Positions 23,969 through 24,250 of a stretch of DNA of 64,000 nucleotides are shown here, piece by piece (position 1 is the stretch's first letter; the number at the start of each line of letters is the position of its first letter). The translations under genes and the position numbers were made by a program. Under the pieces are notes generated by a model. It did not search any database. It saw nothing but the letters and a program-made list of their open reading frames with translations, and had not been told where the DNA came from. The DNA lies in assembly GCF_003334305.1 (NCBI RefSeq), contig NZ_QOWS01000012.1, one strand, 5' to 3'. The DNA comes from Escherichia coli (lineage in GTDB: Bacteria > Pseudomonadota > Gammaproteobacteria > Enterobacterales > Enterobacteriaceae).

Positions 23969-24250
23969 AATATTCCTTTATATAAATATAAGTAGAAAAT
24001 GAATGATTAGTAACTGTTATTTAAGGATTGCTAATCATTCAAATATTATATTTTACTTTTCGGGTTTTATGAAATTAGTTTATCTAAATATGGATTAAGT
24101 AAAACTTAAAAAATACATAACAATTATATTTTCAATTGCACTCATTCATTTTTGTGATGATATTCTGAATGGAATTAAGCGATAAGGTAATAGAAAGCAC
24201 TGTAAATTAGAAGATTAATTCATAATTTACAGTGCATTAAAGACAAATGT

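What the first reader, a model, noticed from the sequence alone, without database searches (positions are those of the whole stretch)
24197..24235. Perfect 13-bp AT-rich inverted repeat 16 nt downstream of ubiK, upstream of the fimbrial promoter region
gcactgtaaatta (24197-24209) and taatttacagtgc (24223-24235) are exact reverse complements around a 13-nt spacer. On the minus strand this follows the ubiK stop and is followed by a U-rich stretch, so it may be the ubiK terminator. The AT-rich stem and 13-nt spacing are equally compatible with a dimeric regulator operator, and it sits at the distal edge of the ygiL fimbrial promoter region.
Basis: seen in the sequence. Interest (0 to 1): 0.3.

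Follow-up and report, generated by a model that had tools for sequence, protein, structure and literature searches.

The report
ubiK transcription terminator hairpin
The palindrome is real, but it is the ordinary RNA hairpin at which ubiK messenger RNA ends, just before a silent fimbrial operon, and two published E. coli K-12 3'-end maps already show transcripts stopping there.

Summary
The perfect 13-bp inverted repeat (24197-24209 / 24223-24235, 13-nt spacer) is confirmed and is not chance: 0.025 such repeats are expected per shuffled window. On the minus (ubiK-sense) strand it folds into a hairpin of -17 to -18 kcal/mol. The hairpin starts 16 nt after the ubiK stop and is followed by UUUCUAUU. 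In E. coli K-12 the same element carries a G.U wobble. Two independent published data sets place an RNA 3' end 3-7 nt after its stem (MG1655 3185187-3185191, dominant 3185189 = window 24192). Adams 2021 found it in all three growth conditions. TRS 2023 labels it "Primary, ubiK" with signal 0.96-0.996. The best reading is therefore the ubiK Rho-independent terminator, unusually AT-rich with a weak U-tract. It came with the yqi fimbrial island, which replaced the ancestral ubiK tail and the hairpin ubiK shared with glgS. Factor independence is inferred, not shown; exonuclease trimming back to the hairpin is the main rival. The operator reading has no support: the half-sites lie 2.5 helical turns apart, the locus is single-copy, the site is more than 100 nt upstream of the predicted ygiL promoter, and about half of the genomes carry an asymmetric palindrome. 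This is ordinary and already mapped, so interest is low.

The parts
24251..24541 (-). ubiK (yqiC) coding sequence, 96 aa plus stop; the gene whose transcript the hairpin ends
   Evidence: ORF list. RefSeq annotation of a 100%-identical genome names it ubiK, WP_001297598.1.
24236..24250 (-). 15-nt linker of the ubiK 3' UTR between the stop codon and the hairpin
   Evidence: Sequence.
24223..24235 (-). 5' arm of the RNA hairpin (GCACUGUAAAUUA in ubiK-sense RNA)
24210..24222 (-). 13-nt spacer. In RNA, a 1-nt bulge, a 3-bp stem extension (GAA/UUC) and a 6-nt loop. Position 24212 varies between strains.
   Evidence: Folds; alleles.
24197..24209 (-). 3' arm of the RNA hairpin (UAAUUUACAGUGC). In K-12-type strains, position 24202 gives a G.U wobble.
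24189..24196 (-). U-rich tail UUUCUAUU. The mapped RNA 3' end in K-12 (MG1655 3185189) corresponds to window 24192, the 5th nt after the stem.
   Evidence: Sequence. Term-seq/TRS coordinates and their register. Transferred to window coordinates through a gap-free alignment.

Best explanation
The inverted repeat acts as RNA, not as a DNA site. When ubiK is transcribed (minus strand), the 39-nt palindrome folds into a long AT-rich hairpin: a 13-bp stem plus a 3-bp extension, -17 to -18 kcal/mol. It starts 16 nt after the stop codon and is followed directly by UUUCUAUU. RNA polymerase most likely releases the transcript in this U-rich tail, as at a Rho-independent (intrinsic) terminator. That gives a ubiK mRNA with a 3' UTR of about 60 nt and insulates the H-NS-bound ygiL-yqiGHI fimbrial operon downstream from ubiK transcription. 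Shown: the hairpin, its tail, and the in vivo position of the RNA 3' end in K-12. Inferred: that the end arises by factor-independent termination rather than by trimming, and that the same holds in the window's strain, whose hairpin is slightly stronger and whose tail is identical.
For: (1) The hairpin is far stronger than shuffles allow and the repeat is far rarer than chance. (2) Only the ubiK-sense strand has a U-rich tail (6 U in 8). The other strand is followed by AUUAAAGA. (3) Adams et al. 2021 (PMC7815308, Supplementary file 1) list a Term-seq 3' end at MG1655 3185189(+) three times, once per growth condition, with the sequence of this hairpin. That coordinate is the 5th nt after the stem. 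The register was checked against tRNA CCA ends in the same table. (4) An independent study (TRS, PMC10687069) lists the same terminus (3185185-3185196; dominant 3185187, 3185189 or 3185191) as 'Primary, ubiK'. Its signal is 0.96-0.996, a measure that approaches 1 when few reads continue downstream. It gives fold energy -15.5 and a 3' UTR length of 60. (5) The K-12 allele changes the 3' arm C to U. This keeps a G.U pair in the sense RNA (-14.3 against -16.2 kcal/mol) but creates an A.C mismatch on the other strand (-11.2 against -17.4). (6) In 79 of 80 enterobacterial ubiK loci a hairpin of <= -10 kcal/mol starts within 60 nt of the stop, with median -18.1. In E. coli without the fimbrial island, ubiK instead abuts the glgS hairpin GGGCC-N4-GGCCC. 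(7) The coordinate is absent from the Rho-termination table of Adams et al..
Against: The stem is atypically AT-rich for an intrinsic terminator: 31% GC in paired bases, against a median of 66% downstream of other ubiK genes. The U-tract is weak, with at most 3 consecutive U. The simple consensus terminator scan did not flag it, because its rule requires a loop of 3-8 nt. In the same Term-seq table, terminators with long U-tracts end 7-8 nt past the stem, and U-poor hairpins end 3-5 nt past it. At 5 nt, this end is intermediate. Absence from the Rho table is weak evidence. That table reports only the most significant position within +/-800 nt, and one is reported 772 nt downstream in ygiL. No in vitro termination assay was found. 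All mapping is from K-12, not from the window's strain.
Confidence: 0.72

Rival explanations
1. Protective stem-loop rather than terminator. Transcription ends further downstream in the AT-rich, H-NS-bound spacer, for example by Rho. 3'-to-5' exonucleases then trim the RNA back to the hairpin, which only stabilises the ubiK mRNA end.
For: The 3' end is 5 nt from the stem, closer to the U-poor hairpins (3-5 nt) than to the classical terminators (7-8 nt) of the same data set. The U-tract is weak. The first 75 nt after the hairpin have C > G (12 against 7), mildly rut-like. A Rho termination region is reported 772 nt downstream, and the +/-800-nt rule could mask one here.
Against: Three U residues follow the stem directly, and 6 of the 8 tail bases are U. 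The stem energy is typical of the hairpins found downstream of ubiK in other species. The TRS signal of 0.96-0.996 shows very few reads continuing downstream at steady state. No Rho-dependent signal is listed at this coordinate.
Confidence: 0.2
2. DNA operator: the palindrome is bound by a dimeric transcription factor, or nucleates H-NS, to control the ygiL fimbrial promoter.
For: It is a perfect 13-bp DNA palindrome in an AT-rich regulatory spacer. Genomic SELEX reports H-NS binding somewhere in the yqiC-ygiL spacer.
Against: The arm centres are 26 bp apart, about 2.5 helical turns, so the half-sites face opposite sides (inference from the geometry). There is no second copy of the arm in the window beyond chance, and there is one locus per genome in 3361 E. 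coli genomes. The palindrome lies about 105 nt upstream of the -35 of the promoter predicted in K-12, and more than 120 nt upstream of the promoter-like site in the window. Roughly half of sampled genomes carry the K-12 allele, which breaks DNA symmetry. Literature searches found no transcription factor assigned to this spacer apart from H-NS.
Confidence: 0.04
3. The hairpin is, in addition, the terminator of a small RNA of about 110 nt that starts at an internal promoter inside the ubiK 3' end. This would be a 3'-UTR-type sRNA. It is not exclusive of the best explanation.
For: The TRS supplementary table lists a published transcription start site at MG1655 3185080, 109 nt upstream of the terminus. 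It maps to window 24301(-), behind a possible TTGAAC-17-GAAAAT promoter (read by eye). Read-start density is about 2-fold higher in the 3' UTR than in the CDS.
Against: ubiK was not an outlier in any of the 3 libraries in the 3'-UTR sRNA screen. No yqiC/ubiK entry appears in the Hfq CLASH supplements. Rfam has no match. The promoter-like site scores only 8 of 12 and was not called by the scan.
Confidence: 0.1

Closest known systems
Rho-independent (intrinsic) transcription terminators of E. coli
   Same: A sense-strand stem-loop immediately after a stop codon, followed by a U-rich tail in which the in vivo RNA 3' end maps.
   Different: The stem is long (13+3 bp) and AT-rich (31% GC in paired bases). 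The U-tract is interrupted (UUUCUAUU). Factor independence is not demonstrated.
The glgS/ubiK convergent hairpin of E. coli strains without the yqi fimbrial island (O157:H7, ST131) and of E. albertii
   Same: It occupies the same functional place, the first strong hairpin after the ubiK stop.
   Different: It is a short GC-rich stem (GGGCC-N4-GGCCC) whose T-run follows it on the glgS-sense strand, shared by two convergent genes. It has no sequence similarity to the window's hairpin, which serves ubiK alone and precedes a co-directional operon.
Exonuclease-blocking 3' stem-loops at the ends of Rho-terminated transcripts (Dar and Sorek 2018, PMC6061677; seen here only as title and abstract)
   Same: A stable hairpin a few nt upstream of the mapped 3' end, with a poor U-tract.
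   Different: Here three U residues follow the stem directly, and no Rho signal is listed at the site. The two cannot be separated with the data available.

Membership tests
Intrinsic (Rho-independent) terminator | Stable RNA stem-loop on the sense strand just downstream of the gene | tested here: met
   -18.2 kcal/mol, z = -5.6 to -8.5, starting 16 nt after the ubiK stop.
Intrinsic (Rho-independent) terminator | G+C-rich stem | tested here: inconclusive
   Only 4 of the 13 main-stem pairs are G-C. Three of those four lie in the bottom four pairs. Paired-base GC is 0.31, against a median of 0.66 downstream of 80 other ubiK genes.
Intrinsic (Rho-independent) terminator | U-tract immediately 3' of the stem | tested here: met
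   UUUCUAUU: 3 consecutive U, 6 U in 8, on the ubiK-sense strand only. The tract is weak by the count in TRS (max U-tract 3).
Intrinsic (Rho-independent) terminator | In vivo RNA 3' ends map within the U-tract | tested here: met
   MG1655 3185189 (5th nt after the stem) in three conditions. TRS lists 3185187-3185191 as 'Primary ubiK'. The data are from K-12, not the window's strain.
Intrinsic (Rho-independent) terminator | Termination by RNA polymerase alone, independent of Rho | not testable with these tools
   The only evidence is indirect: absence from the Rho-region table, which reports one site per +/-800 nt.
Operator of a dimeric transcription factor | Two inverted half-sites spaced so that a dimer contacts one face of the helix | tested here: not met
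   The centre-to-centre distance is 26 bp, about 2.5 turns (geometric inference).
Operator of a dimeric transcription factor | Position overlapping or adjacent to the regulated promoter, and recurrence of the motif at other targets | tested here: not met
   It lies more than 100 nt upstream of the predicted ygiL -35. There is no other copy in the window and one locus per genome. A genome-wide search for the 13-nt half-site alone was not possible.
Operator of a dimeric transcription factor | Demonstrated protein binding | not testable with these tools
   The literature held here gives only H-NS and RNA polymerase binding somewhere in the spacer.
3'-UTR-derived small RNA | 3' UTR signal in excess of the CDS, and chaperone association | tested here: not met
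   Not an outlier in 0 of 3 libraries. Absent from the Hfq CLASH supplements. No Rfam family matches.
Repetitive extragenic palindromes (REP/BIME) or MITE | Many dispersed copies per genome | tested here: not met
   One place per genome. The two places reported in some records are read here as the two strands of the same palindrome; this was not checked by coordinates.

The most novel reading that the evidence does not exclude
The fimbrial-island allele of ubiK carries its own small transcription unit. An internal promoter straddles the island junction, with its -10 at window 24308-24313 and its start site at 24301. Together with this hairpin it would produce an island-specific RNA of about 110 nt, or a regulated read-through that couples ubiK transcription to the cryptic Yqi fimbriae.
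Probability: 0.07. Interest if true: 0.35.

Novelty: already known. Interest (0 to 1): 0.07.

Why it matters
It fixes the 3' boundary of the ubiK transcription unit. It also shows that the silent ygiL-yqiGHI fimbrial operon is separated from ubiK by a terminator, which helps annotation and the design of ubiK or yqi constructs. It does not open a new question. The element is a standard kind, and its RNA end is already in published tables, one of which assigns it to ubiK.

Tried and rejected
(1) The consensus terminator scan did not call the site. Its rule needs a loop of 3-8 nt, so this is a limit of the rule and not evidence against the site.
(2) An Rfam scan of 22000-27000 at E <= 1 found only the ribB FMN riboswitch.
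(3) A search for further copies of the arm in the window found only a chance-level 2-mismatch hit. A 53-nt blastn found one locus per genome. The 13-nt half-site alone could not be searched genome-wide.
(4) No usable data came from the supplements of Dar and Sorek 2018, the 3'-seq comparison preprint, the nanopore paper or the 3'-UTR valves paper (no files held). Ju et al. 2019, Thomason et al. 2015 and Melamed et al. 2020 are not held.
(5) Literature searches for a regulator of ygiL or for an sRNA role of ubiK/yqiC found nothing relevant.
(6) Covariation could not be tested. Among the 80 species representatives fetched, the hairpin occurs only in one E. coli-like contig (L006); the E. coli and E. 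albertii representatives are island-less. Three sequence alleles were seen among E. coli genomes, plus one copy abutted by IS1. The single G.U-preserving transition is consistent with an RNA role but is about a 1-in-2 event for a transition.
(7) A LexA-box or CRP-like reading of CTGT...ACAG was rejected on spacing: 25 nt lie between CTGT and ACAG. This rests on my own knowledge of those consensus sequences.

Full report
OBSERVATION. The window reads gcactgtaaatta at 24197-24209 and taatttacagtgc at 24223-24235. These are exact reverse complements separated by 13 nt, and with one mismatch the repeat extends to 16 nt (24194-24238). ubiK lies on the minus strand at 24251-24541. A genome 100% identical over this stretch is annotated there as ubiK, with ygiL downstream on the same strand (23417-23968 in the window). 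The repeat is not a chance product of AT-rich DNA. It is one of only two perfect inverted repeats of >=13 bp with spacer <=20 in the 64 kb. Dinucleotide shuffles of the window yield 0.025 such loci on average, and only 0.16% of shuffles of the 282-nt intergenic stretch contain one.

ANATOMY. As ubiK-sense (minus-strand) RNA the element folds into a 13-bp stem, a 1-nt bulge, a 3-bp extension and a 6-nt loop. The energy is -18.2 kcal/mol, with z = -5.6 in 91 nt and z = -8.5 in 61 nt. It is followed directly by UUUCUAUU. The opposite strand folds equally well, as any palindrome must, but is followed by AUUAAAGA with no U-run. The simple terminator scan did not list it because its rule demands a loop of 3-8 nt. 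Rfam finds nothing here; the only family in the neighbourhood is the ribB FMN riboswitch at 24663-24811.

EXPERIMENTAL 3' ENDS FROM THE LITERATURE. In MG1655, ubiK is at 3184840-3185130 (+) and the hairpin at 3185146-3185184. Adams et al. 2021 (eLife, PMC7815308, Supplementary file 1) list a curated Term-seq 3' end at 3185189 (+), with the sequence CTTTAATGCACTGTAAATTATGAATTAATCCTCTAATTTATAGTGCTTTCTATTACCTTAT. The coordinate occurs three times, and the file has three growth conditions (LB OD 0.4, LB OD 2.0, M63). It was classed as "orphan" only because it lies 59 nt from the stop, beyond their 50-nt limit for "primary". The coordinate is the fifth nt after the stem (UUUCU|). I checked the register of their sequence column against mature tRNA CCA ends in the same table: the 3' nt is at position 51 of 61.

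An independent laboratory found the same terminus (TRS, Nat Commun 2023, PMC10687069). Its own term-seq and RNAtag-seq libraries give 3185185-3185196, with dominant position 3185187, 3185189 or 3185191. It is annotated "Primary, ubiK" with signal 0.96-0.996, rank 275 in one sheet, fold energy -15.5 kcal/mol, longest U-run 3, and a 3' UTR of 60 nt. By that paper's figure legend, the signal approaches 1 when reads ending at the site far outnumber reads continuing past it. A gap-free alignment transfers the K-12 coordinate to window 24192.

VARIATION. All 5426 complete E. coli genomes have ubiK, but only 3361 have the hairpin. In those it is a single chromosomal locus. I read three alleles. The first is the window's. 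The second has one change in the loop (E24377A, 89-3156). The third is the K-12 type (MG1655, MC1061, ECCTRSRTH03), with that loop change plus G->A at window 24202. In an evenly spaced sample of 30 hits they appear as 3, 11 and 15 rows, and 287 genomes are >=99% identical to the window. The K-12 arm change gives a G.U pair in the ubiK-sense RNA (-14.3 against -16.2 kcal/mol) but an A.C mismatch on the other strand (-11.2 against -17.4). This agrees with selection on the sense-strand RNA. It is a single transition, however, and about half of all transitions in a stem would do the same, so I count it as consistent, not as proof. It does show that the element in which the 3' end was mapped is not a perfect DNA palindrome.

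CONTEXT. In the 2065 genomes without the hairpin (for example O157:H7 and ST131), window 19012-24310 is replaced by 72 nt. That stretch holds yqiI-yqiH-yqiG-ygiL, the spacer, the hairpin and the last ~20 codons of ubiK. In those genomes ubiK converges on glgS, with only 34 nt between the two genes. These contain the GC-rich hairpin GGGCC-N4-GGCCC. Their UbiK tail (..PPAIPPVDKAE) resembles that of E. albertii, Citrobacter, Salmonella and Enterobacter, whereas the island-type tail (..[13 protein letters not shown]) does not. The fimbrial-island allele, with its own ubiK tail and its own hairpin, is therefore the derived state. It fills the place held elsewhere by the hairpin shared with glgS. 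Across 80 enterobacterial ubiK loci, 79 have a hairpin of <= -10 kcal/mol starting within 60 nt of the stop, with median -18.1. The window's hairpin has a typical energy (-17.0) but the lowest GC content of paired bases (0.31 against a median of 0.66), matching the AT-rich island it belongs to.

MECHANISM AND RIVALS. That the element is the RNA hairpin marking the ubiK mRNA 3' end I regard as established (about 0.95). That the end is made by intrinsic termination is inferred (about 0.72). In favour are three U residues directly after the stem, 6 U in 8, a high TRS signal, and no Rho-dependent region listed at the site.

The main rival (about 0.2) is termination further downstream, followed by exonucleolytic trimming to the hairpin. 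In the same Term-seq table, terminators with long U-runs end 7-8 nt after the stem and U-poor hairpins end 3-5 nt after it, so this end at 5 nt lies in between. The Rho table reports only the best position within +/-800 nt, and one such position (3185961, at the end of ygiL) lies 772 nt away. A Rho contribution here therefore cannot be excluded.

The operator reading (about 0.04) fails on several counts. The half-site centres are 26 bp, about 2.5 turns, apart. The motif is single-copy. The K-12 allele is asymmetric. The site lies about 105 nt upstream of the -35 of the promoter predicted from genomic SELEX (TCGATA-17-TATAAA) and more than 120 nt upstream of the promoter-like site in the window (24073-24045). 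The only proteins reported in this spacer are RNA polymerase and H-NS.

An sRNA reading has one hint, a published start site at 3185080 inside ubiK. Against it, ubiK was not an outlier in the 3'-UTR sRNA screen and is absent from the Hfq CLASH tables.

VERDICT. It is the ubiK terminator hairpin, atypical only in being AT-rich with a weak U-tract. Its RNA end is already recorded in two public data sets, one of which assigns it to ubiK. It is ordinary and of low interest.

Noticed in passing
window 19012-24310: The yqiI-yqiH-yqiG-ygiL fimbrial operon, the spacer, the hairpin and the last ~20 codons of ubiK form one variable block. In O157:H7 and ST131 it is replaced by 72 nt. The island-less UbiK tail (..PPAIPPVDKAE) matches other genera, so the island allele replaced the ancestral ubiK C-terminus and terminator.
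   Followed up: partly
window 24000-24041 (minus strand): There is a second inverted repeat of similar build (14-nt arms, 93%, 14-nt spacer) about 32 nt upstream of the ygiL start codon. It is followed on the ygiL-sense strand by UUUUCUACUU, so it looks like a leader hairpin or attenuator. The fold support is weak (z = -2.5 in the window, -1.7 in K-12). A perfect 11-nt repeat AAAATGAATGA/TCATTCATTTT also links 23996-24006 with 24142-24152.
   Followed up: partly
window 24301 (minus strand), inside ubiK: A published transcription start site (MG1655 3185080, cited from Thomason 2015 in a TRS supplementary table) maps here, 109 nt upstream of the terminator end. A possible TTGAAC-17-GAAAAT promoter precedes it. 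Its -10 straddles the island junction and is GAAGCG in island-less strains.
   Followed up: partly
window 24262-24267; locus L088: Strain 89-3156 has 5 instead of 6 C in the C-run of the ubiK tail. The annotated ubiK is 30 nt longer there, and its stop falls inside the loop of the hairpin, so ribosomes would enter the 5' arm of the terminator.
   Followed up: partly
locus L087 (strain VL7S7), equivalent to window ~24195-24197: An IS1 end (GGTAATGACTCC...) sits 2 nt beyond the last unchanged base of the hairpin's 3' arm. The final stem base C reads T, and the U-rich tail is gone.
   Followed up: partly
window ~23420 (minus strand), end of ygiL: Adams et al. list a Rho termination region at MG1655 3185961, 4 nt before the end of ygiL, with Rho score 9.5. 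This suggests Rho-dependent polarity inside the fimbrial operon.
   Followed up: no
window 56545-56586: This is the only other perfect inverted repeat of >=13 bp with a short spacer in the window: AAAAAAATCCCCGGCA-N10-TGCCGGGGATTTTTTT. Its A7-stem-T7 layout looks like a bidirectional terminator.
   Followed up: no
window 20853-23366: The usher gene yqiG is an intact 837-aa ORF in this window, whereas in K-12 MG1655 it is a pseudogene split by IS2. Together with the hairpin allele, this shows the window is not from K-12. Strain M8 is 100% identical over the 611 nt compared.
   Followed up: no
locus L006 (JAIJJM010000816.1): A 1.3-kb contig filed under a 'Collinsella sp.' metagenome-assembled genome carries a K-12-type E. 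coli ubiK (99% identity) and the K-12 allele of the hairpin. It is probably a mis-binned E. coli contig.
   Followed up: no
window 24663-24811 (+): An FMN riboswitch lies upstream of ribB (Rfam RF00050, 120.9 bits), divergent from ubiK. It is known and annotated.
   Followed up: no
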